Source of the DNA: Hyphomicrobiaceae bacterium UBA2767
GTDB lineage: Bacteria; Pseudomonadota; Alphaproteobacteria; Rhizobiales; Methyloligellaceae
Length of the DNA stretch: 55,141 nucleotides
Direction: 5' to 3'
NCBI GenBank assembly: GCA_002352635.1
Contig: DEIT01000193.1
Location: 11,545-66,685, forward strand
Below are positions 23,035 to 47,871 of this stretch, piece after piece. Positions within the stretch are counted from its first letter, which is position 1; every line of letters starts with the position of its first letter. The notes below the pieces were generated by a model. It did no database searches. It was not told where the DNA came from and saw nothing but the letters and a program-made list of their open reading frames with translations. The translations under genes were made by a program, and so were the position numbers.

Positions 23035-23176
23035 GAACTCGCCTTTCGTTGGGGTGGGAGGAAGAGTACAATATAGAGGTCAATATGATATATTAATGAG
23101 TCATTCAGGATGAATCGAATCCTAATTGCAGTTATGCTCAGGATTTGATCGTGATTGTTGGGCAGGTAAATACGTT

Positions 23177-25337: not shown

Positions 25338-25372
25338 ATTTCACTGTATTGAGTAACGGGAGGCATTGGAAA

Positions 25373-28235: not shown

Positions 28236-28252
28236 GTCGGAGGAATGTCACA

Positions 28253-29555: not shown

Positions 29556-29557
29556 TT

Positions 29558-30922: not shown

Positions 30923-30934
30923 AGGCGTGCATTG

Positions 30935-31619: not shown

Positions 31620-32465
31620 CTATAGTCTGTTGTAAGGACTGCTCCCGCATCGCTTGAGAATTTCAATGGGGGTTTCGAGGACGATCGCTTTGTAGAGGTC
31701 CTCGCTCAAACCCAACTCGCCAAGTTCGCTGAATTGCGCCGCAAGGTCGAAGAAAGGTGCTGTCGAGCCCCAGACTATCTTTTTTTTCAGCGGGCCCTGC
31801 GCGTATTTAAGCAGCACTTCCCAGCCTGACCCTTGAACCCCGTAGTATTTTGTGCGCTGGCCGGAGAGTTCAATGAACACGTTAGCGTGGCGCATTGCGA
31901 TTGACGTCATGTCGCCCACCCAGGGCCACCCTCCGTGACTCGCTACAATCACCAGCTGGGGAAAATCGATGGCCACTTGATCAAGATGGCAAGGGTGTCC
32001 AAGATTCATTGGACAATTGGAACTGAGCTGCGTGGAGGCATGGATAATGACGCCAAGGCCAAGCTCGCAACATTTCCCATATACCGGATAGTACTGACGG
32101 TCGCTCGCGGGCAGGCCCTCGCGGTATGGCGTCAGGCCGATCAAGCGCAAACCCATGTCGCACGCCTGATGCACTGTCTCAACCGCGTCCATGCAGGGCG
32201 ATGGTGAAATGTCTGCTATGCCAATGAAACGATCCGACTCACTGACAAGCGCTGCCAACTCCTCAAGCGGAGCGCCCGCACCCGTGACAACCTGCTGAGA
32301 TATCCCAAGCTCATCCAGGAGTTCGATATGTCCTTGGACAGAGGAACTCTTTCCATCGGACGTGAACGAGCGGAAATGCTTCGCGTAGGCACCGCGCTCT
32401 GCCAGCTTTTCCCGCGTGGCTTCGAGTGGCGCGAAGGCTCTGAAATCAATGCTCGTATGGTTCAT
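31620..32465 (-). CDS. Amidohydrolase-2 family (ACMSD-like metal-dependent hydrolase/decarboxylase TIM barrel)
   Basis: 281 aa. GVIIHAS...LGHPCHLDQVAIDFPQLVIVASHGGWPW...IVWGSTAPF fits the PF04909-type pattern. Its ATG directly abuts the rhodanese stop. Confidence 0.7.
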   Translation of the reverse strand: MNHTSIDFRAFAPLEATREKLAERGAYAKHFRSFTSDGKSSSVQGHIELLDELGISQQVVTGAGAPLEELAALVSESDRFIGIADISPSPCMDAVETVHQACDMGLRLIGLTPYREGLPASDRQYYPVYGKCCELGLGVIIHASTQLSSNCPMNLGHPCHLDQVAIDFPQLVIVASHGGWPWVGDMTSIAMRHANVFIELSGQRTKYYGVQGSGWEVLLKYAQGPLKKKIVWGSTAPFFDLAAQFSELGELGLSEDLYKAIVLETPIEILKRCGSSPYNRL

Positions 32466-34094
32466 TTAATCGTGACCATCTTTCTTGACGAGCTTTTCCT
32501 CCCAATCCAGATACTGCTGCATACCTTCTTGCCCCCTGGCGAAGGGTGGCAACACGAGGTCATCCGCTTCGGTCGGTCGAACGACACCTGTCTCGACAGA
32601 CAGTCCAGATTTTCTCCATGCTGTTAGTCCACCCTCCAGGAGGAAAGTGTTCGAGTATCCCAGTCCGACCAGGGTCGCATTCGCGAGGCAGGATTGACTC
32701 CCGCTGCGGCAGGTCACGAGGATAGCCGTAGTTTTACTGGCCGCTACGTTGCCGATGCGCTGCTCCAATGATCCGCGCGGCAGCCAGGTAGAGCCGGCGA
32801 TATGTCCAGATGAGAAGTTCTTGCTGTGGTCGACGTTGATGACGGTCATCTCTGGAGTTTCCGCCAATTGTTGTTGTGCCTTCTCCGGGGTCAAATGACG
32901 GCTGGTAGCCTTGGCCTCGTCCAGCCCCAGTGGGGCGGGGCGGCCGCGGCCTTTGTCAAGGCAGTTACCCGCTTCAACCCAGCCGTTCACACCTCCGCTC
33001 AGGATATGAACGTTCGGATACCCCATCCGGAGGAAATAGGAAGCCGTAACTATGGCGCGGCCTTCCCGGTCATCGATAAATACGATTGGCGCCATTTTGA
33101 CGGCGACGAAATCATCGGCCCGCTGTACCGCCTGACCGCCCGGTAAAGCCATGGTTCCGGGAATGTGGCCGGCCTGATAGTCCGCGAGAGGTCGTATGTC
33201 GAACACATAGGCATTGCTGTCGCCTCGTTTTCGCGCTTCGATTGCATCCATCAGAGCTTGCCTATCCATTGACGGAATGTTGGCATTTGCCGCGATTTTG
33301 GCGGCACGGTCCTCAAATACTTTGATGCTTTCACCTGACGGGTTGAAAGGTTCCGCCGAACCGAATTCGTCCAACTTATGTCCAGCCAGGATCCAGCCCA
33401 TTGTCCCGTTTTTCAGGGCGTAGACATTTTCGAGCCCAAGTTCACGAAGCGCTTGGCAGGCGATGATTGAGCGCGTCCGCCCGGCGCAATGGACAATAAT
33501 TGGCACATCGGCTTTCTCGAAGTCGCCGAGCGAGCGAGCTACATCGAAGCTGGGGGCCGGTCGTGAGTCTGGAATATGAGCGGCCTCATGTTCTTCCGGT
33601 GTCCGGATGTCACAGATCAGCATCGCTTTGCCCGAGTCACGCCAGGAGGCCAACTCTTCCGCTGTCAAATCCGGCACATTTTTTGAAGCGTGGAGGTTCT
33701 CGCCAAATAGTTTGCATGGCACGTTGGAGCCTTCGACCAGCGTATGCCCGGCCTCGCGCCATGCTGCGGCGCCACCGGACAGTACAAGCACATTCTTGTA
33801 TCCGAAGCCTCTTAGTGTCTGCAGGGCTAATCCCGCACGGTCGTCATCAGTGCCATTGTCGTACAGAACGATCAGGGTGCTTGGGTCCGGCACCAGTTCC
33901 GCGATGCGAAATTCGACAAGTCGCCGCGGCAGAAAAGTGGTCCCGCTTACATGTCCCTTTTCGGCCTCGCCAGCCTCGCGCACGTCAAACAAGGCATATT
34001 CGCTGTTCGACGACCTCAGCTTTTCCAGCTCAGGCACGGAAATAGCGTCGTTTGTGCTCGCAGGCCCTGCTTTCGAATCTGGTTGCCCCGTCAT
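32466..34094 (-). CDS. Four-domain rhodanese protein #2 (two catalytic Cys)
   Basis: 542 aa. The active-site loops read LYDNGTDD (Asp), VHCAGRTRS (Cys), FIDDREGR (Asp) and VTCRSGSQS (Cys). The C-terminal motif is YLDWEEKLVKK. The ATG shares a base with the upstream ligase TAA. Confidence 0.85.
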   Translation of the reverse strand: MTGQPDSKAGPASTNDAISVPELEKLRSSNSEYALFDVREAGEAEKGHVSGTTFLPRRLVEFRIAELVPDPSTLIVLYDNGTDDDRAGLALQTLRGFGYKNVLVLSGGAAAWREAGHTLVEGSNVPCKLFGENLHASKNVPDLTAEELASWRDSGKAMLICDIRTPEEHEAAHIPDSRPAPSFDVARSLGDFEKADVPIIVHCAGRTRSIIACQALRELGLENVYALKNGTMGWILAGHKLDEFGSAEPFNPSGESIKVFEDRAAKIAANANIPSMDRQALMDAIEARKRGDSNAYVFDIRPLADYQAGHIPGTMALPGGQAVQRADDFVAVKMAPIVFIDDREGRAIVTASYFLRMGYPNVHILSGGVNGWVEAGNCLDKGRGRPAPLGLDEAKATSRHLTPEKAQQQLAETPEMTVINVDHSKNFSSGHIAGSTWLPRGSLEQRIGNVAASKTTAILVTCRSGSQSCLANATLVGLGYSNTFLLEGGLTAWRKSGLSVETGVVRPTEADDLVLPPFARGQEGMQQYLDWEEKLVKKDGHD

Positions 34095-35479
34095 TAATCC
34101 GCTCCCCTAATCACGACAATTTTTGACTTTCCCGTCGTTCGTTCAAGGCCGCCATAGGCGAGCAACGAAACGTCCGTTCTCACGCTGAGTTTTTCGCGCA
34201 ATGTCAGATCAAGTTGTTCCTTGAGAGCGGGCCACGCGCTTTGCTCCACGCTTTGGGCGCATTCGACCTCCAGGTTCAAAGGTGGTTCAGCGACAGGGCC
34301 AGGACAATCCAGAATTATGCGTATCTTGCCCGTCGTCCTGGGCGCAAATGAGGAAATGACCGATTGTACGGCTGACGGGAAGACATTCATCCCGCGCACC
34401 AATAGCATATCGTCGGACCGGCCGATCAAATCGATGCGGAATCCTGTGCGGCCACATTCACACGACGAGGTGTGGACGCGTACGATGTCATTTGTACGGT
34501 AACGCAAGAGCGGACACGCCTCACGGTCGAGATGTGTAAATACATACTCTCCCACGGCGCCATCGCGTATCTCAATTGACTTGCCTGTGTCGGAATTGAT
34601 CAACTGAACCAGAACCAGATCACCTGTAACATGGTGTTTGCCGGAGCGAACGTAACAGTTTGTGAATGAATTCGGGTGCGCATCTGACGATGATGCAAGG
34701 TCAAAGATACCCTTTGTGCCAAAAGTTTCTTCAAGCTGTTCCCGCATTCCGGGCAGCTCAAAACCGGGCTCTCCGCCTCCGCACACAATGCGAAATCCCA
34801 GTTCGCTTGCCGGGATTCCGAGAACATCCTCACAACGTTCAGACAGATAGCTTGCAAATGAAGGCGTGGAGACGAGCACGGTTGCATCAAGCTCTTTGGC
34901 AATACGAAGCAGACCCTCAGCTTTCCTCTCCGTTCCGACAGGAATATTGACCGCACCCAGTCGTTCAATGGCCGTGCAGTATGGAACGCCGGCGTTGAAC
35001 ATACTGAGATTGAATCCATTGATTACCCGGTCTCCCGGGCGAACACCGAAACCCCACAGGACACGGCATACGCTTTCATCACGAAGTAAGACGTCTCGTC
35101 GTGTGTAAGTCTGCACAACAGCCCGGCCAGTTGTGCCAGCGGTGGTCGTCACGCGGATGAGCCTGTTGAACGGTGCTGCAACATGCCGGCCAAACGGCGG
35201 GGCCTCTTCCTGGCTTTCCCTCAGCTCGACCTTTTTGGTGAATGGCAATGACTCCAAATCAGATAATTCGCGAAAATCCCCGGGATTGAAGCCAGCTTCC
35301 TTGAAGCGCTTTTGATAGAACTTGGAATTTGCCTGCAGGTACGGAATTTGACGTTTGAGTTTCTCGATCTGGAGCTCCTGCAACTGATCCAACGGCATCG
35401 TCTCAGCTTCAGGATTCCAGTAAACCTCGTCAGGATCGTGCGCTTCACCGCACTCCATAACACCAGGGACCTGTTCCAT
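34094..35479 (-). CDS. PaaK / coenzyme-F390-synthetase-like adenylate-forming ligase
   Basis: 461 aa. QLQELQIEKLKRQIPYLQANSKFYQKRFKEAGFNPGDF...LPFTKK...TTTAGTTGRAV is the phenylacetate-CoA-ligase family layout. A GGAGGAAA SD precedes the ATG. Confidence 0.8.
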   Translation of the reverse strand: MEQVPGVMECGEAHDPDEVYWNPEAETMPLDQLQELQIEKLKRQIPYLQANSKFYQKRFKEAGFNPGDFRELSDLESLPFTKKVELRESQEEAPPFGRHVAAPFNRLIRVTTTAGTTGRAVVQTYTRRDVLLRDESVCRVLWGFGVRPGDRVINGFNLSMFNAGVPYCTAIERLGAVNIPVGTERKAEGLLRIAKELDATVLVSTPSFASYLSERCEDVLGIPASELGFRIVCGGGEPGFELPGMREQLEETFGTKGIFDLASSSDAHPNSFTNCYVRSGKHHVTGDLVLVQLINSDTGKSIEIRDGAVGEYVFTHLDREACPLLRYRTNDIVRVHTSSCECGRTGFRIDLIGRSDDMLLVRGMNVFPSAVQSVISSFAPRTTGKIRIILDCPGPVAEPPLNLEVECAQSVEQSAWPALKEQLDLTLREKLSVRTDVSLLAYGGLERTTGKSKIVVIRGAD

Positions 35480-35576
35480 TTTCCTCCGATCTACCTGTTT
35501 TCACTCATGCCCTCTCAACGAAGCGCGAATGCGAATTCAGGTGCTTATCATATTTGCTGTAATTCGTTGTTGTTGC

Positions 35577-36089
35577 CTATATCCAGGGTGCCGAACCCTC
35601 CCTGGCAATAAAGCAAAAAAGCGGGTCATCAGTGTGGTTAAATTTAGTGATTGCACCTATGACAATGAGATGATCACCCGCAATGTGCTCGGACACCGTT
35701 TTGCATTGGAACGAGGCGATAGTCTCAGGAAGTAGGGGCACCTTAAGTTCGCCCAATTCGTAGTCGATTCCCGCAAATCGATCACTAATTTTCGCACAAA
35801 AACGCGTAGCCAGATCGCGCTGGTGCGTTGAGAGCACGTTTACTGCAAATCGCCCCGCTTTGCGGAATTCTTCGAGGCTTCGCGACATGTGATTTATGCT
35901 CCAAAGCACCAGAGGCGGATCAAGTGATACGGAACTGAACGAGTTGACGGTGAGGCCGATCGCACCTCCAGTCCGGTCACAAGTAGTGATGACTGTTACG
36001 CCTGTGGCAAACCGGCCAAGCGCCTGCCGAAGTTGAATCATATTGTTTTTGGCAGAGGGCAAATCACCCGAGTGCCCGTTCTTTTTCAA
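35577..36089 (-). CDS. NAD(P)H-flavin reductase #2 (HpaC-type)
   Basis: LRQALGRFATGVTVITT...GLTVNSFSSVSLDPPLVLWSI...GDHLIVIGAI. The track start is TTG 36089, and ATG 36041 is an alternative. Confidence 0.8.
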   Translation of the reverse strand: MKKNGHSGDLPSAKNNMIQLRQALGRFATGVTVITTCDRTGGAIGLTVNSFSSVSLDPPLVLWSINHMSRSLEEFRKAGRFAVNVLSTHQRDLATRFCAKISDRFAGIDYELGELKVPLLPETIASFQCKTVSEHIAGDHLIVIGAITKFNHTDDPLFCFIAREGSAPWI

Positions 36090-36120
36090 GTGACCTATGG
36101 CGGGATTCCTCTTTCAAAAT

Positions 36121-37287
36121 CTAGAGTCGGGCCGTGGTGTCGAATTGGAGCCCCAGGGCTGCTTGCCCTACCGTGGCTGCTGTACGATCCATGTTTTCGT
36201 GAAGTGTATGAATACGTAGATCCCGGAAAAATCGGCTGAGAGGTGCGTCAGCGAGGAATGCACTAGAGCCAGCGATTTGCGCTGCTTTGTTCATGATGAT
36301 GACAGCATTCTCGATAGCCCGGTGTTTGGATTTCATCGAATATAGCTCGGCTTCCTGTAAGTCGCCCTGGGACCAGAGCCATGCGGCGCGATAAATCATC
36401 CAACGCACTGAATCTATACCGATACAGATTTCTCCCAGCCGCAGCTGCGTGTATGAATCTCCGCTGGTTCCCCGTTTGGGCAAATATTCAATCAGCGTAT
36501 TGTACACGCCTTCCGCGCCACCAAGATATTGCGCCGCAAATCCCAAGTGGAATCTGGCCTGCCAGCGATCATTGGGATACACACCGGGTTCCCCAAGAAC
36601 GTAATCGTCGGATACGAAACAATTATCAAGCTCCAGGTTAGGGCTTGTTGCTCCGCGCATCCCCATCGGATCCCACGATCCGTCAATGACCCTAAAACCC
36701 TTTGTATTTTTTGGAATTGCGACACCGATATGCCCTTCAGGTGGCGGAATATCCTTCCGTCCCGCGAACACGATGTTGAACTCGGCCTCAGCGCCGAGGG
36801 TCGCGTAATTCTTCACCCCATTGAGGCGATAACCACCCTCCACGCGTTCCGCTTCCGTAATAAGTTTGTATAGACCCCGTGATGTTCTGCCCGGTTCGCT
36901 ACCCGTTGCGTTTAGCAGGGCGCCACGCTCGATAACCGGCGTGAGGATGTTCTTGCGTTGTTCGGGCGTGCAGACCTGATCGACATAGTGACAACCATGC
37001 GCGTGAATATGCAGGCATTGGGCCGTCGACATGCAGGCCGATGCTGTCTGTTCCACGGCGAGCAGATACAGGAGGGGGTCTTTCCCCATGGCGCCGCTTC
37101 CGGCGCCACCCAGATCCTCGGAAATCGTCAATGCCAGATGGCCGCCTTCAAACAAATCCTGAAGGTTTTCGATCGGTGTGGACGCATCGCGATCATACTT
37201 GGCCGCCCGCTTGGCAAATTTCTCTTTCGCAAGCGCGCCTACTTCTTCGTAGACTTTTTCTTGCTGCGGTGACAGGCGAAAATCCAT
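36121..37287 (-). CDS. ACAD-fold protein, DszC/SfnB-like, paralog 2
   Basis: I start it at ATG 37287 (MDFRLSPQQEKVYEE), which aligns with paralog 3 (MDFELDKHHQEFQEK). Motifs are AQCLHIHAH, KNYATLG, WDPMGMRGATSP and a C-terminal RDLRIHTLHENMDR, which resembles the R-x-H-[ST]-L-H-[DE] tail I associate with DszC-type enzymes. Confidence 0.65.
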   Translation of the reverse strand: MDFRLSPQQEKVYEEVGALAKEKFAKRAAKYDRDASTPIENLQDLFEGGHLALTISEDLGGAGSGAMGKDPLLYLLAVEQTASACMSTAQCLHIHAHGCHYVDQVCTPEQRKNILTPVIERGALLNATGSEPGRTSRGLYKLITEAERVEGGYRLNGVKNYATLGAEAEFNIVFAGRKDIPPPEGHIGVAIPKNTKGFRVIDGSWDPMGMRGATSPNLELDNCFVSDDYVLGEPGVYPNDRWQARFHLGFAAQYLGGAEGVYNTLIEYLPKRGTSGDSYTQLRLGEICIGIDSVRWMIYRAAWLWSQGDLQEAELYSMKSKHRAIENAVIIMNKAAQIAGSSAFLADAPLSRFFRDLRIHTLHENMDRTAATVGQAALGLQFDTTARL

Positions 37288-37338
37288 ACGTGACCCCTTG
37301 TAAAAAAACGACTTCGTGGTGGTAGGCAAGCGCCGAGC

Positions 37339-37366
37339 TTGATTTTGGTAGAGCTTAAGATATAAT
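37339..37366 (+). promoter_or_regulatory. Sigma70-like promoter TTGATT-N16-TATAAT for the LysR gene
   Basis: I counted the hexamers and the spacer directly. It lies in the 146-nt divergent region between 37287 and 37434. Confidence 0.4.
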
Positions 37367-37433
37367 ACAAATATCCAAATTTTATCAATTCGATGCCTTT
37401 TTGGCATGCGTTGCGATCGTCACGGGTGAGAAG

Positions 37434-38360
37434 ATGCTTGATCTGCGAGCGTTGCGCTATTTTGTGCGTGTGGCGGAAATGAAGAGCGTTTCAAAGGCGG
37501 CAACCTCACTCTATATCGCTCAGCCGGCCATCAGCCGGCAGATCAAGAAGTTGGAGGATCAGATCGGTGTACAGTTGCTCATCAGGTCGGGCCGCGGGAT
37601 CGATCTTACGGATGCCGGAGCGTTACTGGAGATTCACGCGAGAGAGGTTCTCGAAAGACTGTCCGTAATCCACAACGATGTCTCGGCTTGCGTGGACGAG
37701 GCCAGGGGGTTGGTCAGGCTGGCCGTATCGCCTGCTGCGGGCCGCATTCTCGCTCCACCACTTGTCATGCAAATGGCTTCATGTTTTCCTGAAGTCTCCT
37801 TGAGAGTATTGGAGAGCTTTACGAGCGTAATCCATGATGGGCTGAGATCGAAACGGTTTGATCTCGGTGTGCTTCACGATCCGGGTGATGCTCTTCACCT
37901 GAAGACCGAAACTCTCCTGAATGAATTGCTTTTTGTGATTGGCCCCGGAAACCGGAACTCCAATGCTGACCCACTCCCTCGAGAGTATCGCCTGAAGCAG
38001 CTGGAGAAGCTCCCGCTAATTATGCCGGTCGCTCCAAACCAGCTGCGTGTTGTTGCCGATAGCATTGCGGCAACAAACAAAATTACATTCAATATCGTTG
38101 CTGAGGTCGACAGTATCCCCATCATGAAAGCGCTCGTGGAGGAGGGCTTTGGCTACACACTTCTCAGTTTCGGTTCCGTCCATGAAGAAGTGGCGCGCGG
38201 TGTCCTCACTGCTGTACCGATTCCAGAGGTAGAGCGGAAGTTGGTGGTTGCCTGGAACATTGAGCAGCGTCTGACCAACGCGGCAAGGGAGACCATAAAG
38301 ATTCTACACGAAAACGCATCGTCAATGGTGCGGAAGGGGAAATGGCGCGGTTCGCTCTAG
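37434..38360 (+). CDS. LysR-family transcriptional regulator
   Basis: MLDLRALRYFVRVAEMKSVSKAATSLYIAQPAISRQIKKLEDQIGVQLL is a canonical LysR HTH. It is divergent from the DszC-like/flavin reductase/ligase/rhodanese operon. Confidence 0.9.
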   Translation: MLDLRALRYFVRVAEMKSVSKAATSLYIAQPAISRQIKKLEDQIGVQLLIRSGRGIDLTDAGALLEIHAREVLERLSVIHNDVSACVDEARGLVRLAVSPAAGRILAPPLVMQMASCFPEVSLRVLESFTSVIHDGLRSKRFDLGVLHDPGDALHLKTETLLNELLFVIGPGNRNSNADPLPREYRLKQLEKLPLIMPVAPNQLRVVADSIAATNKITFNIVAEVDSIPIMKALVEEGFGYTLLSFGSVHEEVARGVLTAVPIPEVERKLVVAWNIEQRLTNAARETIKILHENASSMVRKGKWRGSL

Positions 38361-38433
38361 GGTCTGATTGCCATATGGTAAATCCGATTGCGGTGGTCGG
38401 TGTATCAGGAACAGACTTGCAGTAGAAACCTGA

Positions 38434-39840
38434 TTAACCCGCAAATTTATAAGCCTTATCTCCTTGCAGGATCCGCGGGAACAGAGCCTGTACATTATCC
38501 AGGCTTTCCAGCGTGGCAATCATTTGCATCATGCGCGAGTGCTGGTCCGATGACAGGGCAAAATGCCCACGCGATATGCATTTAGCTATCTTGTTCTCGA
38601 ATTTCGCGTCCGATAAGGGCGTTTTGGGAGAACCGGGAACGCCATCAATGCGCCGGCTGTGTGTCTTGCCGTCCTGCATAGTGACTGAAACCTCCGCAGG
38701 CGTTAGCCTGCCTGTTTCATCGGTATAAGTCGTCACCTCGACCCGGTTCGCCAGCGACCCTACATCTGGCGCCGTGACCATTTCGGGAAGAATATCTGCA
38801 ACACCGAACTCTCCACGCAACAAGACGGCCGCCACAGCATAGCGGACGCTGAATTGTCCGCTTACTGTCGGATTTTCAGAAGGATCGAACGGCTCGCCGA
38901 CAAGCCGGTACATATACGGTGTAATGGATACATTAATCTTGCTGATCTCATCGGCTTTGAATTGTTCATTCTCAACCAACGCGAGCGTGGCCTCAATAGC
39001 CGCGTGGCTGCACGCGCAACATGGATATTCTTTGAAACTCGTCCTGGTTATCAGATAGTTTTCGCCAAAACCATCGAGTACAATTTCGGAAACCCCGTGC
39101 TCATACATTGAGAAAAGGCCGAATTTTCCATCGATAGCTCCTACTGGACCGCGAAGTCCGGCGGATGCCAGCAAGGCAGCTTCCACGCCCGCCTGCGCTG
39201 CGAATGCCGACTGCATTCGTTTGGTTGAGGCGCGCTCTATATTTGGCTGCTGTGTGCCCGCCACCCTGCTCATGACTATGGATATGGCATCGCGGATACC
39301 ATCCTCACCCAGACCCAGCAGCTTCGCCGCCGCGACTGCAGCGCCAAAACATCCGAATATAGAAGTATAGAACCAGCCCGTGTGGTCTTGTGCCGACAAG
39401 CCCAGCCGGCTGGCTATCTCAGTGCCCAGAGCAGCCGCCGCGAGTAATTCCTTGCCACTGCTGCCTTGGCGTTCTGCTATCGCGAAAGCAGCAGGCAAAA
39501 CACAAATGTCCGCATGCACCAAAGCGTCACCCTGAAGGCTATCAAAGTCCAGTGCGGCAGCTAAGATGCCGTTGGCAAGTGCTGCATAACCCGCTGGCGC
39601 TTTGCCGCCAACAGCCCACACCGTACTGTCCTCTCCTGCCGCAAAATTGACAACAAACGGGACAAGCTGGGCGACGTCGGCATGTTCAGTCGCCGCCCAG
39701 GACACCGCCAAGGTGTCCAAGACGGATTTCTTCGTGGTCTTTATGACCTCTTCAGGGAGATCATCAAAGTTTACGCGCGCAACCAGTTTGGACAGTGAAA
39801 CTGAGAGCGGGTCCTGATGGGCTTGTGTGCTGCCGGTCAC
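38434..39840 (-). CDS. MmgE/PrpD-family protein (2-methylcitrate dehydratase / cis-aconitate decarboxylase superfamily)
   Basis: 468 aa. LSKLVARVNFDDLPEEVIKTTKKSVLDTLAV and the overall length fit the PrpD family. The GTG start shares a base with the upstream ACAD TAG. Confidence 0.75.
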   Translation of the reverse strand: MTGSTQAHQDPLSVSLSKLVARVNFDDLPEEVIKTTKKSVLDTLAVSWAATEHADVAQLVPFVVNFAAGEDSTVWAVGGKAPAGYAALANGILAAALDFDSLQGDALVHADICVLPAAFAIAERQGSSGKELLAAAALGTEIASRLGLSAQDHTGWFYTSIFGCFGAAVAAAKLLGLGEDGIRDAISIVMSRVAGTQQPNIERASTKRMQSAFAAQAGVEAALLASAGLRGPVGAIDGKFGLFSMYEHGVSEIVLDGFGENYLITRTSFKEYPCCACSHAAIEATLALVENEQFKADEISKINVSITPYMYRLVGEPFDPSENPTVSGQFSVRYAVAAVLLRGEFGVADILPEMVTAPDVGSLANRVEVTTYTDETGRLTPAEVSVTMQDGKTHSRRIDGVPGSPKTPLSDAKFENKIAKCISRGHFALSSDQHSRMMQMIATLESLDNVQALFPRILQGDKAYKFAG

Positions 39841-41003
39841 TATTTTCTGCTGAGCCCCATGAATTCTTTGCCCAGAAGTTCCCGGACGACGACCAATTTC
39901 ATCACATTGATCGTGCCGCCGGTGAATGCGAGACCCATGACATCTCGGAGGCGGCGCTCAACGTCAAGATCTTTCAGGTATCCGCTGGCGCCATACATCT
40001 GCAGGCAGCTCCCGACCGCCTCAATTGCCGCTGTTACACCATGCCATTTTGACATGGTCGCTTCGCGCGCCGCATCTTCACCCCGGACATTTTTCCAAAG
40101 ACCCTTGTAGGCTAACAGCTTGCATGCTTCCATTTTTGTATAGTGCTCGATTAGAGGGAATGAAACGGCTTGGTTCATCCCGATCTTCCGGCCGTAGACT
40201 TCTTTTTTCTTCACGAACTCGATTGTCTCGTCCAGGACCGCCAGGGCGGTGCCAATAGCATTGAGAGCACTTAGGCAGCGGGTTACATTCCAGCGCGCAT
40301 ACATCAGCGCCTTGCCATCCTTGATGTTATCTCTGTCTTTACCCAGGGCGCTGTCCAGCGGCACGCGGACATCCTTGAACCCGACGCGTCCAAGTTGATG
40401 GGACCGCATGCCCATTTCGGGCATGATTTCACAACTCACGCCTGGCGCGTCTGAAGGCACTTTAAGAAACTCCATTCGAGTCTTGCCATCATCAGTGGGT
40501 ACCATCACGCTGACACCCATTACCGAAGCACCAGGCATTAGGCTCACGTGGATTTTCTCCCCGTTAATGACATAGTCGCCATTGTCGATGGTTGCCGCCG
40601 TAGAAATATTGGAAACATCAGACCCGGCATTCTCCTCGGACGTGGCGATACATACGAGCTTGTTGCCTTTATAGACTTCGCGGATATCATCCTCGTCCCA
40701 ACCTGGCGTCAATGTGGTCAAGGTGTTCTGCATGGAACAGATCATGGCGCAGCTGGAATCCGTGCGAGCAAGCGTTTCAATAACTATGCCAAGTGAGATG
40801 TAATCCAGGCCCTTGCCTCCGAGTTTCTCCAGACCGATCATGCCCAACAAGCCAGCCTCTCCAAGCCCCTTGATCGCTGACCAAGGCATCTCTTCCTTTT
40901 CGTCCCATTCTTTTAGACCCTGTTTAACCTTGCTTTCCGCCACTTTCTGGACAAATTCACGCAATTCCTCCTGTTTATCCGTAAACCCAAAATCCAATGC
41001 CAT
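39840..41003 (-). CDS. Acyl-CoA-dehydrogenase-fold protein lacking both canonical catalytic Glu positions
   Basis: 387 aa and clearly ACAD-like (SEENAGSDVSN; GMRSHQLG; VSFPLIEH). The MCAD-Glu376 position reads F-T-G-G-T, and the IVD-Glu254/MCAD-Thr255 position reads N-V-T-R. Confidence 0.8.
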   Translation of the reverse strand: MALDFGFTDKQEELREFVQKVAESKVKQGLKEWDEKEEMPWSAIKGLGEAGLLGMIGLEKLGGKGLDYISLGIVIETLARTDSSCAMICSMQNTLTTLTPGWDEDDIREVYKGNKLVCIATSEENAGSDVSNISTAATIDNGDYVINGEKIHVSLMPGASVMGVSVMVPTDDGKTRMEFLKVPSDAPGVSCEIMPEMGMRSHQLGRVGFKDVRVPLDSALGKDRDNIKDGKALMYARWNVTRCLSALNAIGTALAVLDETIEFVKKKEVYGRKIGMNQAVSFPLIEHYTKMEACKLLAYKGLWKNVRGEDAAREATMSKWHGVTAAIEAVGSCLQMYGASGYLKDLDVERRLRDVMGLAFTGGTINVMKLVVVRELLGKEFMGLSRK

Positions 41004-41050
41004 TGCTCAAACCCCTTCTTAAAGTCGAAATACTTGAAACGAATTCCCCG

Positions 41051-42928
41051 TCAGGCGGTCACGAGTTTTTTGGATAGAAATACCTGATTCACAAGACAGG
41101 GGATCAAAAGTCCAAAGCCAACGAGCCAGAAACGCCAATCGGGCAAGATAATTAGAACACCCGCTATGAACATCGCCGTGCGAACGAGGGGTGAAGCCGA
41201 CGCCATCCAATATCCGGCCATAGATGCTGCCACAGCCGAAATTCCGATTAGTGCAAAAGTGAAAGGAAGGATGAAATCATAAGCATCCCCCTGAAGGAGC
41301 AGGGCCGGATGATAAACGAACGCGAATGGAATAATAAAGCCAGCGATAGATAGCTTGAATGCTTCGATGCTTGTAGCCGCAGGGGACGCCTTGGCCACGC
41401 CGGCGGCGGCATATGAAGTAATAGCCACCGGAGGCGTGACCCCGGAGATGATCGCAAAATAGAATACAAACATATGCGCCGCGAGCGGGATAACGCCCAA
41501 ATCGATAAGGGCAGGGGCCGCAACGGTCACCGAAAGGATGTAGGCCGGCGTCGTCGGCATGCCCATGCCCAAGAGAATAGACGTAAGCGCCACCATGGCC
41601 AGACTTAGGAAAAGCATGCCATTTGCGGAACTGACAATCATGCTCGAAAAAGCGAGGCTGAGACCGGTGGCGGTCAGAGCACTCACGACAAGACCAGCCG
41701 CCGCGCAGGCAATTGCAATCAGAATCGCAGACCGCGTTCCGGCCGCCAGGACATCACACAACCTGCGCGGCGTCATTCTGGTATCTTTGCGCGCAAAGCT
41801 AACTATGAACGCTGCAATGGTCCCGGCAAGAGCCGCTTTAACCGGCGTGTAACCCAGCGACAACACCAACAGCATGGATAGGATAGGAAGGAGATAGTAG
41901 GAGCGCATCAAAGCCTTTGACCGGCTCGGCAATTTGCTCTTCTCTACCGGGTCTATCCCGAGCCTCCGCGCTTCCAGATGCACGACCATTCCCACAGCCA
42001 AAAAGAACAGGATGGCAGCGGGAAGCGCCGCGGTGATCAGCTCGATATACGTCATGCCGAGCAACGCCATCATGATGAAGACAGACGCGCCCATAACCGG
42101 AGGCATGATTTGACCGCCGGTCGAGGCGGCCGCCTCCACCGCGCCAGCAAAGGCCGGCTTGTAACCCATGTTTTTCATCAACGGAATTGTGTAAACGCCG
42201 GTGCCATAGACATTTGCAGTCGGGCTCCCGCTGATGGAGCCGAACATGGCACTGTTGATGACAGCGATTTTGGCGGGTCCTCCGACCTTATGGCCGACCA
42301 GTGCTTGCGAAATCTCCGCGAACCACTCGCCAACTCCGCAACGCTCCACAAATGTGCCAAACATGACAAACAGAAACAGGTAAGTAACGGAAATCCCCGT
42401 CAGTGAGCCGAAAATCCCCTGGTTCTCAAGCACGTACATTCGCTCAATTGCCCGGCTCAGAAAAAATCCTCGATGACCTAAAGGGCTTGGCAGGAAATGT
42501 CCAACAAGCAGATAGACAACGGATGCAGCGACGACAATTGCCATGCCGATACCGATGACCCGCCGGGCTGCTTCCCACACCAGGACGGTAGCGAATACGC
42601 CAAAAATCACCTCGATGTTCTGTATATCCGAAACGAGTTCGAGCCTGTTGTTCAGCTCTTCGTAATGCAAAGCCACATAGCTGGTAACGATGAATGCGGT
42701 CGCCGCGAGAATAAAATCCAGAACCGATGGCCATTCCTTCGGAGACAGCGTCTTGGTGGCCGGAAACAGAATAAAAACCATCGGCAGTAGTAAGGTAAGA
42801 TGCAGTGCCCGCGCCAATCGCAAATCAAGAACGCCGACACTGCCGAGCCAAAAGTGAAACAGAGCAGTGCCTACGAGGGCGACAGTTACAGCAATGCCAA
42901 ACGGACCTTTGAAAGTGCGCATCTTCAT
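41051..42928 (-). CDS. TRAP transporter, fused 4TM/12TM permease (TAXI-associated type)
   Basis: About 625 aa and very hydrophobic. It lies immediately downstream of the TAXI receptor gene. I start it at Met 42928 or 42922 rather than the track start at 43018. Confidence 0.8.
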   Translation of the reverse strand: MKMRTFKGPFGIAVTVALVGTALFHFWLGSVGVLDLRLARALHLTLLLPMVFILFPATKTLSPKEWPSVLDFILAATAFIVTSYVALHYEELNNRLELVSDIQNIEVIFGVFATVLVWEAARRVIGIGMAIVVAASVVYLLVGHFLPSPLGHRGFFLSRAIERMYVLENQGIFGSLTGISVTYLFLFVMFGTFVERCGVGEWFAEISQALVGHKVGGPAKIAVINSAMFGSISGSPTANVYGTGVYTIPLMKNMGYKPAFAGAVEAAASTGGQIMPPVMGASVFIMMALLGMTYIELITAALPAAILFFLAVGMVVHLEARRLGIDPVEKSKLPSRSKALMRSYYLLPILSMLLVLSLGYTPVKAALAGTIAAFIVSFARKDTRMTPRRLCDVLAAGTRSAILIAIACAAAGLVVSALTATGLSLAFSSMIVSSANGMLFLSLAMVALTSILLGMGMPTTPAYILSVTVAAPALIDLGVIPLAAHMFVFYFAIISGVTPPVAITSYAAAGVAKASPAATSIEAFKLSIAGFIIPFAFVYHPALLLQGDAYDFILPFTFALIGISAVAASMAGYWMASASPLVRTAMFIAGVLIILPDWRFWLVGFGLLIPCLVNQVFLSKKLVTA

Positions 42929-43045
42929 CCACCAAGTTTTTAAGGTGAGGCAGTCGCGCTGCTTGGCCGACCGGGAAGGGGTGGAGTAAGGGGGCTGCAG
43001 TCGGCGGGAGAGGAGCAAACATCTCCACTCCCGCGCTGCCGTCGA

Positions 43046-44059
43046 CTATTTGTAGTCGTAACCCTTTTCCTTGAAATACCGCTCGGCGCCCGGGTGCAGC
43101 TTGATGTTGCCGCGGTGCTTGGCCTTGACGATATTCTCCGGAATGAATGTCTTCATACTCGGATGGATCTTCCGCACTTTGTCCGCATTTTCGAACAAGG
43201 TTTTGGTGAAGTTGTAGACCACTTCTTCGGGAACGTCCTTGTTAACAATAAGCCCCGATGCCATGGTGAGTGTCGGAAGATCCTTTTCCAGCGGGATGTT
43301 TTTGTAAGTATCCTTGGAAATAACACCGCGCCCGTACCCATACGCCTTGACGACTTTGTCAATCGTCTCTTTCGACAAGGGTAGGAATTTCAGATCACGC
43401 ACCGTAGAAACTTCAAGAAGCGTGGGGGCTGGGAGTTGCAGAAGCGTCATGATCATATCGGCCTGACCGTCGCGGACCAGATCAGCTTGCTTCGAGTGAT
43501 TGGCCTGATAGTGGGCGCCACCGTTTGCCTTCAGCTTGTCGACTGAACTGCCAACGGACTCGATCAGCTTTTTGACGGTAAACCCACCCATGGTTTGCAG
43601 ACCGGGGGTCGCTATTTTGGCAGGGTAATTCTTCTCAAAGATCTCCTCGAAGGTATTCAGCGGAAAATCCTTTTTCGCGACGACCTGATAGAAAGTTTCG
43701 TTGAAGCCAAAAGCGATGGCGCGTATGTCCTCATATTTCTTCTTGTAGGGATCATCGCCTATCATCGCCATTTCGGCCGGCACCGTAAGAGACATTCCTA
43801 TATCGGCGTCCTTTGAAGCGACGCGCGGAGGATTTACCAGGCCGCCGCCAGGGATCACCTTGATATTGAGGTCCGAGCCCTGTTTCTTCACGATATCGGC
43901 GATGCCGCCTGAAATCAGATACCAACCCCCCCCAACAGGGCCACCCATCATGGTCAACTCCGCTGCCATCGCGGACGTTGAGAGTCCGGCAGCAAACAGG
44001 CCCGCGGCAATTGCCGTTCTCAATGCACTGAATTTCCTTGGATTTTTCAATTTTTCCAC
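43046..44059 (-). CDS. TRAP transporter solute receptor, TAXI family
   Basis: 337 aa. The signal peptide is ...AAGLSTSAMA/AE. MMGGPVGGGWYLISGGIADIV and VIPGGGLVNP are typical TAXI motifs. Confidence 0.8.
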   Translation of the reverse strand: MEKLKNPRKFSALRTAIAAGLFAAGLSTSAMAAELTMMGGPVGGGWYLISGGIADIVKKQGSDLNIKVIPGGGLVNPPRVASKDADIGMSLTVPAEMAMIGDDPYKKKYEDIRAIAFGFNETFYQVVAKKDFPLNTFEEIFEKNYPAKIATPGLQTMGGFTVKKLIESVGSSVDKLKANGGAHYQANHSKQADLVRDGQADMIMTLLQLPAPTLLEVSTVRDLKFLPLSKETIDKVVKAYGYGRGVISKDTYKNIPLEKDLPTLTMASGLIVNKDVPEEVVYNFTKTLFENADKVRKIHPSMKTFIPENIVKAKHRGNIKLHPGAERYFKEKGYDYK

Positions 44060-46463: not shown

Positions 46464-46638
46464 TCGAAGCGGAAACACATATACGGATCAATTCGCCCAA
46501 ATTTGAAAATTCTGATGAGCGAACAGGCATTTATCACGGTGGCTGAAAGATGAACTTTTGAAATAGCTGGCGCAAGGCCAATCAAGTCTCCCATAAACTG
46601 CGGTGTTGAGGTGACGAAACAAAAATATCACCGCTTTT

Positions 46639-47784: not shown

Positions 47785-47818
47785 ATACGAACTTTATCGC
47801 AACATCCGCTGATTAGTG

Positions 47819-47850: not shown

Positions 47851-47871
47851 ATCTGCAAAAACCGTTTCTTC

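What the first reader, a model, noticed from the sequence alone, without database searches (positions are those of the whole stretch)
31620..38360. LysR-linked operon coupling a PaaK-type adenylating enzyme to a four-domain rhodanese, with a DszC-like oxygenase, a flavin reductase and an amidohydrolase
Seen: on the minus strand from 37287 to 31620 the gene order is DszC-like ACAD-fold protein, HpaC-type flavin reductase, PaaK-like ligase, 542-aa rhodanese, amidohydrolase-2. The ligase TAA shares a base with the rhodanese ATG (34094). The rhodanese stop (32466-32468) abuts the amidohydrolase ATG (32465). This is tight translational coupling. A LysR gene is divergent, behind a TTGATT-N16-TATAAT box.

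Known: rhodanese domains carry a cysteine persulfide. Adenylation followed by rhodanese-persulfide attack is how MoeB/ThiF-rhodanese proteins (MOCS3/Uba4 type) make thiocarboxylates, but those use E1-type adenylating domains, not ANL/PaaK-type ones. DszC-family enzymes with a separate flavin reductase oxygenate sulfides, among other substrates.

Inference: the operon either installs sulfur on an activated carboxylate (thioacid or acyl persulfide), or traps sulfane sulfur released when a sulfur-containing acid is oxygenated and hydrolysed. I cannot name a characterised pathway with this composition.
Basis: partly seen in the sequence, partly recalled or inferred. Interest (0 to 1): 0.8.

Follow-up and report, generated by a model that had tools for sequence, protein, structure and literature searches.

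The report
Rhodanese-linked acyl-CoA gene cluster, probably organosulfur catabolism
A real, widely conserved but uncharacterised operon joins a CoA-ligase-type enzyme, a flavin oxygenase pair and a four-domain sulfur-carrier protein, and most likely breaks down a sulfur-containing organic acid rather than making a thioacid.

Summary

The linkage is not chance:
- All 11 members of the rhodanese's inner subclade carry the PaaK-like ligase within 5 kb.
- All 15 ligase orthologues on contigs with enough flanking sequence carry the rhodanese. None of 45 generic PaaK-family loci does.
- All 4 loci sampled from the ACAD1 side carry it.

The conserved unit is larger than reported. It runs to 44059 and adds a PrpD-like protein, an ACAD that lacks a catalytic base, and a TAXI-TRAP importer.

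The rhodanese belongs to the PDB 1yt8 family. Elsewhere, members of this family sit beside, or are fused to, 3-mercaptopropionate-type and mercaptosuccinate-type thiol dioxygenases. In the window's clade that dioxygenase is absent, and ACAD1 plus a flavin reductase are present instead.

Best reading: CoA-dependent catabolism of a sulfur-bearing acid, with Cys203 of the rhodanese handling the released sulfur. The thioacid-synthesis idea is not supported. The substrate and the individual steps remain inferred. No published description was found. A second paralogous rhodanese cluster lies at 1808-18391.

The parts
31620..32465 (-). Amidohydrolase_2 protein (281 aa). An accessory member, present only in the closest loci.
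   Evidence: PF04909 at 80 bits. The closest structure is the uncharacterised BB4693, 3irs. Orthologues are found in L001, L002/3 and L006 only.
32466..34094 (-). Four-domain rhodanese RHD1 (542 aa). Cys203 (HCAGRTRS, domain 2) is the invariant catalytic residue. Cys462 (domain 4) is facultative. There is a conserved C-terminal tail, D512...Y528-L-x-W-E-x-x-L535.
   Evidence: Four PF00581 stretches. Full-length match to PDB 1yt8, E 1.4e-70. Residue conservation.
34094..35479 (-). PaaK-family (ANL) adenylating enzyme, presumed acyl-CoA ligase (461 aa). It belongs to a distinct subfamily and is not a PaaK orthologue.
   Evidence: NCBIfam PaaK 239 bits against a cutoff of 700. PDB PaaK and 2-hydroxyisobutyryl-CoA synthetase at E 1e-55. 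Orthologues at >=53% identity always occur with the rhodanese.
35577..36089 (-). HpaC/HsaB-type NAD(P)H:flavin reductase (about 155-170 aa).
   Evidence: PF01613 at 137 bits. Found within 5 kb of the rhodanese in 9/16 members of the acyl-CoA-linked clade and in 0/70 other family members.
36121..37287 (-). ACAD-fold protein ACAD1 (388 aa), the most conserved member and the rhodanese's constant neighbour. Presumed oxygenase component working with the flavin reductase.
   Evidence: Orthologues are 65-88% identical and uniformly 388 aa. All 4 ACAD1-side loci carry a rhodanese. The HTLHEN Glu is invariant.
37393..37407 (.). LysR-type box ATGCC-N5-GGCAT (T-N11-A) in the divergent intergenic region. 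It overlaps the -35-like hexamer of the minus-strand ACAD1 promoter. The LysR promoter TTGATT-N16-TATAAT lies at 37339-37366(+).
   Evidence: Sequence, promoter scan, conservation in L001/L002.
37435..38360 (+). LysR-family regulator, divergent from the ACAD1 operon.
   Evidence: PF00126 plus PF03466. The same divergent position is seen in L001, L002/3 and L004/5.
38434..39840 (-). MmgE/PrpD-family protein, closest to IDS-epimerase and cis-aconitate decarboxylase. It is not a PrpD orthologue.
   Evidence: It co-occurs in 11 of 17 ligase-rhodanese loci and in L157-L159.
39840..41003 (-). ACAD2, an ACAD-fold protein that lacks a Glu at both canonical catalytic-base positions (FTGGT; WNV[T/S]R).
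   Evidence: Alignment to canonical ACADs. 7/7 orthologues share this feature.
41051..43018 (-). TAXI-TRAP fused membrane component (DctM-type), an importer.
   Evidence: PF06808 at 276 bits. Syntenic in L001, L002 and L004. Replaced by TctC/TTT systems in Burkholderiales loci.
43046..44059 (-). TAXI-family solute-binding protein.
   Evidence: PF16868. PDB TAXI solute-binding proteins at E 1e-21, ligand not inferable.

Best explanation
The region 31620-44059 is a LysR-controlled catabolic unit for a carboxylic acid that carries reduced sulfur (a thiol, thioether or sulfinate).

Every step below is inferred.
1. The TAXI-TRAP system imports the acid.
2. The PaaK-like enzyme converts it to a CoA thioester.
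3. ACAD1, supplied with reduced flavin by the reductase, oxygenates the sulfur. This is the job done by an iron thiol dioxygenase (3MDO or Msdo type) in the other branches of this rhodanese family.
4. The four-domain rhodanese uses its single invariant Cys203 to accept or pass on the sulfur that is released, as a persulfide or in sulfite/thiosulfate exchange.
5. The base-less ACAD2, the PrpD-like protein and the amidohydrolase process the remaining carbon skeleton. ACAD2 may act as a desulfinase, like 3-sulfinopropionyl-CoA desulfinase.

What is shown: the gene content, the conservation and mutual dependence of the genes, and the homology and fusion links of the rhodanese family to thiol dioxygenases.

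What is inferred: the substrate, every catalytic step, and the direction of sulfur flow.
For: **Conservation of the linkage.**
- All 11 members of the inner rhodanese subclade have the ligase within 5 kb.
- All 15 ligase orthologues on contigs with enough flanking sequence have the rhodanese and ACAD1. None of 45 generic PaaK-family loci does.
- All 4 loci found from the ACAD1 side have a rhodanese.
- A Rokubacteria locus carries the same set.

**Sulfur link of the rhodanese family.**
- Full-length homology to 1yt8.
- A 3MDO orthologue sits next to it in Pseudomonas locus L084 (E 5.6e-92 to 3uss/4tlf; rhodanese alignment).
- A CDO-type cupin lies within 5 kb in 37/70 non-clade loci, and sulfite-oxidase-type genes in 5.
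- Ten representative clusters are fusions with an Msdo-type cupin (8vni, E 6e-30), and one is a fusion with a PLP C-S lyase.
- Literature: the 3mdo-tst transcription unit (PMC12947264) and the Msdo / cystathionine-beta-lyase / rhodanese cluster (PMC5373536).

**Displacement pattern.** In the acyl-CoA-linked clade, CDO-like genes occur in 0/16 loci against 37/70 elsewhere (p = 4e-5). ACAD1-type genes occur in 11/16 against 1/70, and the flavin reductase in 9/16 against 0/70. The window has no CDO-like cupin.

**Organosulfur context.** L158 and L159 place ACAD1, the rhodanese and the PrpD-like protein among luciferase-like monooxygenases, an SsuA-type ABC transporter and an SfnB-type gene.

**Catabolic character.** The cluster has a TRAP or TTT importer and a LysR box. 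Related loci add CoA-transferases, MaoC hydratases and thiolases.

**ACAD2.** It lacks both catalytic-base positions in 7/7 orthologues. By my recollection of Schurmann et al. 2015, the 3-sulfinopropionyl-CoA desulfinase likewise has Gln and Gly at those positions.
Against: - No substrate is identified and no experiment exists.
- ACAD1 is no closer to the known S-oxygenases (DszC 73 bits, SfnB 85 bits) than to true acyl-CoA dehydrogenases. It also keeps a Glu at the dehydrogenase base position, so it could be an ordinary dehydrogenase.
- ACAD2 is not an orthologue of the desulfinase (156 bits against a cutoff of 600).
- No sulfite exporter or sulfite dehydrogenase was found in the window.
- The rhodanese partnered with 3MDO has no demonstrated function. 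A tst deletion gave no significant 3-mercaptopropionate phenotype (PMC12947264).
- The Fisher tests treat related loci as independent, and two pairs of loci are near-duplicates.
Confidence: 0.5

Rival explanations
1. Thioacid or acyl-persulfide synthesis. The PaaK-like enzyme makes an acyl-adenylate, and this is attacked by the persulfide on rhodanese Cys203. That would install sulfur on the carboxylate in an E1-independent counterpart of MOCS3/Uba4 chemistry.
For: - The ligase and rhodanese genes overlap stop/start in gene order I.
- The same overlap occurs with an unrelated classical AMP-binding ligase in L160.
- An adenylating enzyme lies within 5 kb in 14/16 clade members.
- The adenylation motifs of the ligase are intact (direct reading of the sequence and the invariant columns).
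Against: - In gene order II the rhodanese sits between ACAD2 and ACAD1, away from the ligase.
- L158 and L159 keep ACAD1, the rhodanese and the PrpD-like protein with no ligase at all.
- No ligase-rhodanese fusion appears among the 120 best ligase homologues. Fusions of the rhodanese family to thiol dioxygenases are common.
- The cluster has an import-only transporter, and related loci carry CoA-transferases, hydratases and thiolases, so CoA esters are the pathway currency.
- There is no sulfur-donor gene, no E1 domain and no ubiquitin-like carrier.
Confidence: 0.07
2. The cluster degrades an ordinary, sulfur-free aromatic, alicyclic or branched acid through CoA esters. ACAD1 with the reductase acts as a hydroxylase of the HsaAB or HpaBC type. 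The rhodanese has only a protective or housekeeping role, for example removing CoA persulfide that poisons ACADs, or detoxifying sulfite or cyanide.
For: - ACAD-fold two-component enzymes are mostly C-hydroxylases. The reductase scores best against the HpaH-C1, FerA and HsaB models.
- L160, L161 and the window's RHD2 cluster look like complete beta-oxidation sets for bulky acids.
- The window has five ACAD-fold genes.
- CoA persulfide is a known tight inhibitor of short-chain ACADs (my own knowledge).
Against: - A housekeeping rhodanese would not show strict, reciprocal, subfamily-specific co-occurrence with one ACAD1 orthologue group across phyla.
- The family's other partners are thiol dioxygenases, by adjacency and by fusion.
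- L158 and L159 sit in organosulfur-assimilation contexts.
Confidence: 0.2
3. Sulfur scavenging rather than carbon catabolism. The module extracts sulfur from an organosulfur acid for assimilation under sulfate limitation, as the ssu, msu and sfn systems do.
For: - L158 and L159 place the ACAD1/rhodanese/PrpD-like set beside luciferase-like monooxygenases, an SsuA/NMT1-type ABC transporter and an SfnB-type ACAD.
- Pseudomonas locus L084 has luciferase-like monooxygenase and ACAD genes around 3MDO and the rhodanese.
Against: The window and most ligase-containing loci carry extensive carbon-processing genes (the PrpD-like protein, ACAD2, CoA-transferases, AcnX, hydratases). They are controlled by LysR, IclR or GntR regulators next to carboxylate importers, which is typical of carbon catabolism.
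Confidence: 0.13

Closest known systems
PDB 1yt8-type four-domain 'thiosulfate sulfurtransferase' (by my recollection PA2603), co-transcribed with 3-mercaptopropionate dioxygenase (PA2602) in Pseudomonas
   Same: Same four-domain architecture, full-length homology (E 1.4e-70) and the same CAGRTRS loop and C-terminal YLxWE tail. In both cases the gene sits in an operon with a sulfur-oxidising enzyme.
   Different: About 33% identity, and a different clade. Here the partner is not a CDO-type dioxygenase but an ACAD-fold protein, a flavin reductase and a CoA ligase. The function of the Pseudomonas protein is itself unknown (PMC12947264).
Mercaptosuccinate dioxygenase (Msdo)-rhodanese clusters and fusions (Variovorax paradoxus B4, Advenella mimigardefordensis)
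   Same: The same rhodanese family lies next to, or is fused with, Msdo-type cupins. These clusters also have LysR control and carboxylate transporters (PMC5373536).
   Different: The window has no cupin dioxygenase. The Msdo route needs no CoA activation.
3,3'-dithiodipropionate / 3-mercaptopropionate pathway: Mdo, CoA activation (SucCD or Act), and the ACAD-fold 3-sulfinopropionyl-CoA desulfinase AcdDPN7
   Same: The logic matches: S-oxygenation, a CoA thioester, an ACAD-fold enzyme without a catalytic base, a LysR regulator, and TctC-type uptake in relatives (PMC5373536).
   Different: None of the proteins is orthologous. ACAD2 scores 156 bits against a cutoff of 600 for the desulfinase model. 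The ligase is PaaK-type. The oxygenase is presumed to be flavin-dependent. A rhodanese is integral here.
Persulfide dioxygenase-rhodanese pairs and fusions (ETHE1/TST, CstB, PRF) of sulfide oxidation (my own knowledge)
   Same: A sulfur oxygenase is coupled to a rhodanese that shuttles sulfane sulfur or makes thiosulfate from sulfite.
   Different: The oxygenase fold differs (metallo-beta-lactamase), the substrates are low-molecular-weight persulfides, and no CoA-ester chemistry or carbon catabolism is involved.
MoeB/ThiF-rhodanese proteins (MOCS3, Uba4, MoeZ) that make protein thiocarboxylates
   Same: An adenylating activity and a rhodanese are encoded together.
   Different: There is no E1 (ThiF) domain and no ubiquitin-like carrier. 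The NCBIfam MoeB hits cover only the rhodanese part of those models. The context is catabolic.
Two-component ACAD-fold S-oxygenases (DszC/DszD, MsuC/MsuE, SfnB)
   Same: An ACAD fold plus a separate PF01613 or other flavin reductase. Organosulfur contexts are seen in some related loci.
   Different: Scores are far below the family cutoffs (DszC 73/850, SfnB 85/431). ACAD1 keeps the dehydrogenase-type Glu.
Phenylacetate-CoA ligase PaaK and 2-hydroxyisobutyryl-CoA synthetase
   Same: Same PaaK-like branch of the ANL superfamily (E 1e-55), with intact adenylation motifs.
   Different: Below the equivalog cutoffs. No PaaA/PaaC-family protein was found among the window ORFs scanned with Pfam. The orthologue group is separated from other PaaK-family proteins by an identity gap, >=53% against <=44%.

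Membership tests
Four-domain rhodanese family of PDB 1yt8 (3MDO/Msdo-partnered sulfurtransferases) | Four tandem PF00581 domains in a protein of about 520-545 aa | tested here: met
   Four stretches, 186 bits. Homologues are 485-566 aa.
Four-domain rhodanese family of PDB 1yt8 (3MDO/Msdo-partnered sulfurtransferases) | Full-length sequence homology to 1yt8, with the invariant domain-2 loop C-A-G-R-T-R-S | tested here: met
   E 1.4e-70 over residues 29-542. The loop is invariant in 86/86.
Four-domain rhodanese family of PDB 1yt8 (3MDO/Msdo-partnered sulfurtransferases) | Adjacent or fused CDO-type thiol dioxygenase | tested here: not met
   No CDO-like hit anywhere in the window. 0/16 in the acyl-CoA-linked clade against 37/70 elsewhere.
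Four-domain rhodanese family of PDB 1yt8 (3MDO/Msdo-partnered sulfurtransferases) | Sulfurtransferase (persulfide-forming) activity | not testable with these tools
   Needs an enzyme assay.
Phenylacetate-CoA ligase PaaK (equivalog) | Score above the NCBIfam PaaK cutoff | tested here: not met
   239 against 700 (NF041878) and 222.5 against 646 (TIGR02155).
Phenylacetate-CoA ligase PaaK (equivalog) | Genomic association with the paaABCDE ring-epoxidase genes | tested here: not met
   No PaaA/PaaC-family hit among the window ORFs scanned with Pfam.
PaaK-like branch of ANL adenylating enzymes | Homology to PaaK-type structures, the AMP-binding_C_2 domain, and intact adenylation motifs (TTAGTTGR, YRTND, GRSDDML..RG.NVFP, C-terminal Lys) | tested here: met
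   The motifs were read directly from the sequence, and they are invariant in A2.
DszC (dibenzothiophene monooxygenase) | Score above the NF043015 cutoff | tested here: not met
   72.8 against 850. PDB DszC scores 65-72 bits, below short-chain ACAD at 101 bits.
Group-D two-component ACAD-fold flavin monooxygenases | ACAD fold plus a separately encoded flavin reductase in the same operon | tested here: met
   The reductase lies within 5 kb in 9/16 clade loci.
Group-D two-component ACAD-fold flavin monooxygenases | Loss of the ACAD catalytic-base glutamate; reduced-flavin/O2-dependent activity | tested here: inconclusive
   ACAD1 orthologues keep a Glu at the YEG-equivalent position (HTLHEN, 8/8). 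The in-window paralogues have Ala there. Activity cannot be tested here.
3-Sulfinopropionyl-CoA desulfinase (AcdDPN7) | Score above the NF042439 cutoff | tested here: not met
   ACAD2 scores 156.5 against 600, and ACAD1 102.6.
3-Sulfinopropionyl-CoA desulfinase (AcdDPN7) | No acidic catalytic base at either ACAD base position | tested here: met
   FTGGT and WNV[T/S]R in 7/7 ACAD2 orthologues. The comparison with AcdDPN7 (Gln246/Gly366) is from memory.
3-Sulfinopropionyl-CoA desulfinase (AcdDPN7) | Essential sulfinate-binding Arg84 | not tested
   I had no reference sequence. The paper PMC3624521 is not held.
MoeB/ThiF-rhodanese (MOCS3/Uba4/MoeZ) thiocarboxylation systems | E1-type (ThiF) adenylation domain | tested here: not met
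   Pfam finds only rhodanese domains. The MoeB and MoeZ model hits cover only their rhodanese segments.
MoeB/ThiF-rhodanese (MOCS3/Uba4/MoeZ) thiocarboxylation systems | Ubiquitin-like sulfur carrier with a C-terminal Gly-Gly | not tested
   Small ORFs were not screened. None appears among the called genes of related loci.

The most novel reading that the evidence does not exclude
CoA activation may exist to make the C-S bond cleavable by the rhodanese itself. The ligase would convert a mercapto-acid (for example a 2-mercaptoacyl compound) into its CoA thioester. Cys203 would then abstract the sulfur by thiophilic attack, with the thioester enolate as leaving group, as 3-mercaptopyruvate sulfurtransferase does with its alpha-keto substrate. 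The resulting protein persulfide would be oxidised to sulfite by ACAD1 with the flavin reductase. This would be a new CoA-dependent desulfurisation route in which an ACAD-fold flavoenzyme replaces the iron thiol dioxygenase.
Probability: 0.12. Interest if true: 0.8.

Novelty: new variant of a known kind. Interest (0 to 1): 0.58.

Why it matters
Small sulfur-bearing acids such as 3-mercaptopropionate, mercaptosuccinate and DMSP-derived acids are abundant in soils and seas. Only a few of their degradation routes are known, and all start with an iron thiol dioxygenase.

This cluster appears to be a widespread alternative route that is CoA-dependent and flavin-dependent. It occurs in Alpha-, Beta- and Gammaproteobacteria and in Rokubacteria.

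It also gives a handle on the unknown function of the four-domain rhodanese of the 1yt8 family (about 565 representative clusters at 50% identity). Its partners here are a defined ligase subfamily, ACAD1, and a base-less ACAD. These supply concrete proteins and cultured hosts for experiments: Sneathiella chungangensis, Allopusillimonas soli and Pusillimonas sp. SM2304.

If ACAD2 is a second ACAD-fold desulfinase, or if ACAD1 is an S-oxygenase acting on CoA esters, either result would extend known ACAD-fold chemistry.

Tried and rejected
- **Literature.** Searches for any paper joining a rhodanese with PaaK or F390-synthetase-type ligases, ACADs, PrpD or flavin reductase found nothing. A search for 'four rhodanese domains' also found nothing.
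- **Thiophene-2-carboxylate.** I considered this because L020 is Xanthobacter tagetidis. No gene cluster is described in the literature. The parts of L020 that I annotated show no molybdenum hydroxylase, only the same ACAD, ligase, carboxylase and reductase families. The idea is left as an untested lead.
- **L047/L060 ACADs.** I tested whether the two ACADs following CDO-like plus rhodanese are the known desulfinase. They are PimC/PimD-like. Dead end.
- **TAXI solute-binding protein.** The search against solved structures gave no ligand clue.
- **PADLOC.** No defence-system hits for the rhodanese or the ligase.
- **AcdDPN7 paper.** PMC3624521 is not held, so the Gln/Gly base positions are quoted from memory and Arg84 could not be checked.
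- **Structure prediction.** I did not pursue it, because fold alone would not separate dehydrogenase from oxygenase.
- **Ligase-rhodanese fusions.** None among the 120 best ligase homologues.
- **Sulfite-handling genes.** None found among the window ORFs that I scanned or inspected.

Full report
**1. Observation**

The six genes are at the stated coordinates:
- amidohydrolase_2, 31620-32465(-)
- four-domain rhodanese RHD1, 32466-34094(-)
- PaaK-like enzyme, 34094-35479(-)
- flavin reductase, 35577-36089(-)
- ACAD-fold protein ACAD1, 36121-37287(-)
- LysR regulator on the + strand

The family assignments hold. The junctions are as described. TAATG is a one-base overlap with a GGAG upstream, and TAA|ATG is a direct abutment. 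TTGATT-N16-TATAAT lies at 37339-37366.

Promoter-like matches are no more frequent in this region than in shuffled sequence (12 against 11.4). However, the intergenic block is conserved in two related loci. It contains a LysR-type palindrome, ATGCC-N5-GGCAT, at 37393-37407, overlapping the -35-like hexamer of the minus-strand promoter.

- Only Cys203 (CAGRTRS, domain 2) is invariant, in 86/86 family members. The second 'catalytic' Cys is C462 in domain 4 and is present in 44/86.
- ACAD1 is not specifically DszC-like. It scores 101 bits against short-chain ACADs and 65-72 bits against DszC. NCBIfam DszC scores 73 against a cutoff of 850.
- The ligase is a PaaK-family member but not a PaaK orthologue (239 against 700; PDB PaaK and 2-hydroxyisobutyryl-CoA synthetase at E 1e-55).

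**2. The linkage is conserved, reciprocal and larger than reported**

The contigs that encode rhodanese homologues at 62%, 56% and 49% identity show the same set. LysR lies divergent from ACAD1-[reductase]-ligase-rhodanese-[amidohydrolase]. A TAXI-TRAP transporter, a second ACAD (ACAD2) and an MmgE/PrpD-family protein are also present. In the window these occupy 38434-44059.

Burkholderiales loci keep the set in a second gene order, ACAD2-rhodanese-ACAD1-reductase-ligase. There, TctC transporters replace TRAP, and AcnX, an SDR and CoA-transferase III are frequent additions.

I built a neighbour-joining tree of 86 family members drawn from 80 species-representative genomes plus the other loci. 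It has one clade embedded in acyl-CoA clusters. All 11 members of its inner subclade have the ligase within 5 kb.

In the reverse direction, I scanned metagenomes with an alignment of the ligase. An identity gap separates 22 orthologues (>=53%) from 45 generic PaaK-family loci (<=44%).
- 15 of the 22 orthologues carry the rhodanese.
- The other 7 lie on contigs with little flanking sequence, under 2 kb on the side where the rhodanese would be expected.
- None of the 45 generic loci carries it.

From the ACAD1 side, all 4 loci sampled carry a family rhodanese. A Rokubacteria locus has the PrpD-like protein, two PaaK-like ligases, two ACADs, an SDR and the rhodanese.

**3. What the rhodanese family is**

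RHD1 is a full-length homologue (E 1.4e-70) of PDB 1yt8, a 539-aa P. aeruginosa 'thiosulfate sulfurtransferase'. An exhaustive search gives about 565 representative clusters at E <= 1e-30.

Outside the acyl-CoA clade, the commonest neighbour is a CDO-type cupin, within 5 kb in 37/70 loci. In Pseudomonas locus L084 that neighbour is a near-orthologue of the crystallised 3-mercaptopropionate dioxygenases (E 5.6e-92). Its partner rhodanese aligns end to end with RHD1. Sulfite-oxidase-type genes accompany the pair in five Dehalococcoidia/SAR202 loci.

Fusion proteins confirm the coupling.
- Nine representative clusters carry an N-terminal cupin, and one carries a C-terminal cupin.
- That cupin is homologous to mercaptosuccinate dioxygenase 8vni (E 6e-30).
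- One cluster fuses the rhodanese to a Cys/Met-metabolism PLP enzyme.

The literature agrees at gene-neighbourhood level. 3mdo and tst form one transcription unit (PMC12947264). Msdo, cystathionine-beta-lyase and a rhodanese cluster together in Advenella and Variovorax (PMC5373536). The biochemical role of this rhodanese is still unknown: a tst deletion had no significant effect on 3-mercaptopropionate levels.

**4. Displacement pattern**

| Gene within 5 kb of the rhodanese | Acyl-CoA-linked clade | Rest of family | Fisher p |
|---|---|---|---|
| CDO-type cupin | 0/16 | 37/70 | 4e-5 |
| ACAD1-type protein | 11/16 | 1/70 | 2e-9 |
| Flavin reductase | 9/16 | 0/70 | 2.5e-8 |
| Adenylating enzyme | 14/16 | 3/70 | 1.7e-11 |

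The loci are not phylogenetically independent, so the p-values are only indicative. The window has no CDO-like sequence at all.

The constant partner of the rhodanese in this clade is ACAD1, not the ligase.
- In L160/L161 the ligase is a classical AMP-binding enzyme, again with a stop/start overlap onto the rhodanese.
- In L158/L159 there is no ligase. ACAD1, the rhodanese, PrpD-like proteins, an SDR and TctABC sit among luciferase-like monooxygenases, an SsuA-type ABC transporter and an SfnB-type gene.

I read this as non-orthologous displacement of the iron thiol dioxygenase by an ACAD-fold/flavin-reductase pair. That is an inference.

**5. Other anatomy**

ACAD2 has Gly where canonical ACADs have the YEG glutamate, and Thr or Ser at the alternative helix-G base position. 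This holds in 7/7 orthologues. The ACADs that precede RHD2-type rhodaneses have the isovaleryl-CoA-dehydrogenase-type Glu. The only ACAD-fold enzyme I know that lacks both bases is the 3-sulfinopropionyl-CoA desulfinase (from memory). ACAD2 is not its orthologue (156 bits against a cutoff of 600).

ACAD1 orthologues keep a Glu at the YEG-equivalent position (HTLHEN, 8/8). The two in-window paralogues have Ala there. Whether ACAD1 is an oxygenase or a dehydrogenase therefore stays open.

The PrpD-like protein is closest to IDS-epimerase and cis-aconitate decarboxylase. The amidohydrolase is closest to an uncharacterised Bordetella protein and is confined to the nearest loci.

**6. Explanation and rivals**

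*Best-supported reading (confidence about 0.5).* This is CoA-dependent catabolism of a sulfur-bearing carboxylic acid. The steps would be TRAP import, ligation to CoA, S-oxygenation by ACAD1 with the reductase, sulfur handling by Cys203 of the rhodanese, and carbon processing by ACAD2, the PrpD-like protein and the amidohydrolase. The gene associations are shown. Every catalytic step and the substrate are inferred.

*Rivals.*
- A sulfur-free acid pathway with a housekeeping rhodanese (0.2).
- Sulfur scavenging rather than carbon catabolism (0.13).

The thioacid idea is weakened in several ways. The ligase varies in type and is sometimes absent. Gene order II separates it from the rhodanese. 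No ligase-rhodanese fusion was found. The transporter is import-only. Related loci carry CoA-dependent catabolic enzymes.

*A more novel variant that is not excluded (0.12).* The thioester could make an alpha C-S bond cleavable by the rhodanese itself, as 3-mercaptopyruvate sulfurtransferase does with its substrate. ACAD1 would then oxidise the resulting persulfide.

**7. Comparison and novelty**

The system works like the thiol-dioxygenase/rhodanese and Mdo/CoA/desulfinase pathways. It fails the membership tests for PaaK, DszC, the desulfinase and MOCS3-type systems. The rhodanese is a member of the 1yt8 family. No paper describing the ligase/ACAD/rhodanese module was found. I rate it a new variant of a known kind, namely organosulfur-acid catabolic clusters that contain a rhodanese.

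**8. Wider window**

The window is a flavoenzyme-rich and CoA-rich island. It holds the following:
- A second paralogous four-domain rhodanese (5383-7002, 43% identical) sits in a different conserved acyl-CoA cluster. That cluster matches Ferruginivarius locus L087 and X. tagetidis locus L020.
- There are three ACAD1-type paralogues.
- There are two riboflavin-biosynthesis genes.
- There are acyl-CoA carboxylase subunits.

Noticed in passing
window 1808-18391: A second four-domain rhodanese, RHD2 (5383-7002, +, 539 aa), is 43% identical to RHD1 and has no domain-4 Cys. It lies in another conserved acyl-CoA cluster. The gene order is: flavin reductase, CoA-transferase III, ACAD with an isovaleryl-CoA-dehydrogenase-type Glu, MaoC-like, RHD2, HMGS-like/DUF35, thiolase-like, SDR, MocR regulator, and three AMP-binding ligases. 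The order matches Ferruginivarius sediminum L087, and the families match Xanthobacter tagetidis L020.
   Followed up: partly
window 24564-31573 (+ strand): An operon convergent on the rhodanese operon contains an SDR (24564-25337, missed at first because a longer antisense ORF was chosen), an AMP-binding ligase, an ACAD1-type paralogue (27072-28235, Ala at the base position), MaoC, an alpha/beta-hydrolase, a biotin carboxylase and RibA. RibBA lies at 23126-24310. Two riboflavin-biosynthesis genes are therefore embedded in a flavoenzyme-rich island.
   Followed up: partly
window 39840-41003 and orthologues in L001, L002, L004, L007, L008, L086: ACAD2 lacks a glutamate at both known ACAD catalytic-base positions (FTGGT; WNV[T/S]R) in all 7 orthologues. 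It is probably not a conventional dehydrogenase.
   Followed up: partly
proteins P0419, P0426, P0432, P0452, P0457, P0458, P0481, P0482, P0504 (N-terminal cupin), P0479 (C-terminal cupin), P0505 (C-terminal PLP enzyme): These are natural fusions of the four-domain rhodanese. The partner is a mercaptosuccinate-dioxygenase-type cupin, found in both domain orders, or a Cys/Met-metabolism PLP enzyme.
   Followed up: yes
window 32466-32560 (C-terminal residues 512-535 of RHD1): The C-terminal tail after domain 4 is almost invariant across the family: D512 in 86/86, M525 in 80/86, and Y528, W531, E532 and L535 in 85/86. No function is known for it.
   Followed up: no
window 34094-35479 (ligase residues C340, C342 and others): The ligase orthologues share invariant cysteines, including a C-E-C-G-R insertion just before the GRSDDML motif, and also C168, C233, C275 and C322. 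This may be a metal site or a redox site. As far as I recall, E. coli PaaK has no such motif.
   Followed up: no
window 45264-54980: This stretch holds a third ACAD1-type paralogue (45264-46463), a DctP-type TRAP binding protein, CoA-transferase III, a 565-aa protein with no Pfam hit (49404-51101), and an acyl-CoA carboxylase pair (biotin carboxylase-BCCP 51141-53153; carboxyltransferase 53193-54980).
   Followed up: no
window 19405-20901: A 498-aa multi-pass membrane protein has no Pfam match. It lies between an NMO-like oxidoreductase (18405-19490) and a crotonase (about 20980-21746). It may be an uncharacterised transporter.
   Followed up: no
L157 (Rokubacteria, GCA_016188005.1): A variant of the module includes a three-subunit 2-oxoacid:ferredoxin oxidoreductase and two PaaK-like ligases next to the PrpD-like protein, two ACADs, an SDR and the rhodanese. 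This hints that a 2-oxoacid intermediate feeds the pathway.
   Followed up: no
L004 17683-18687 (Sneathiella chungangensis): A PF03601 (Cons_hypoth698) membrane protein lies directly downstream of the PrpD-like gene. As far as I recall, this family has been proposed as a sulfate exporter family. It would fit sulfur release, but it was seen in only one lineage.
   Followed up: no
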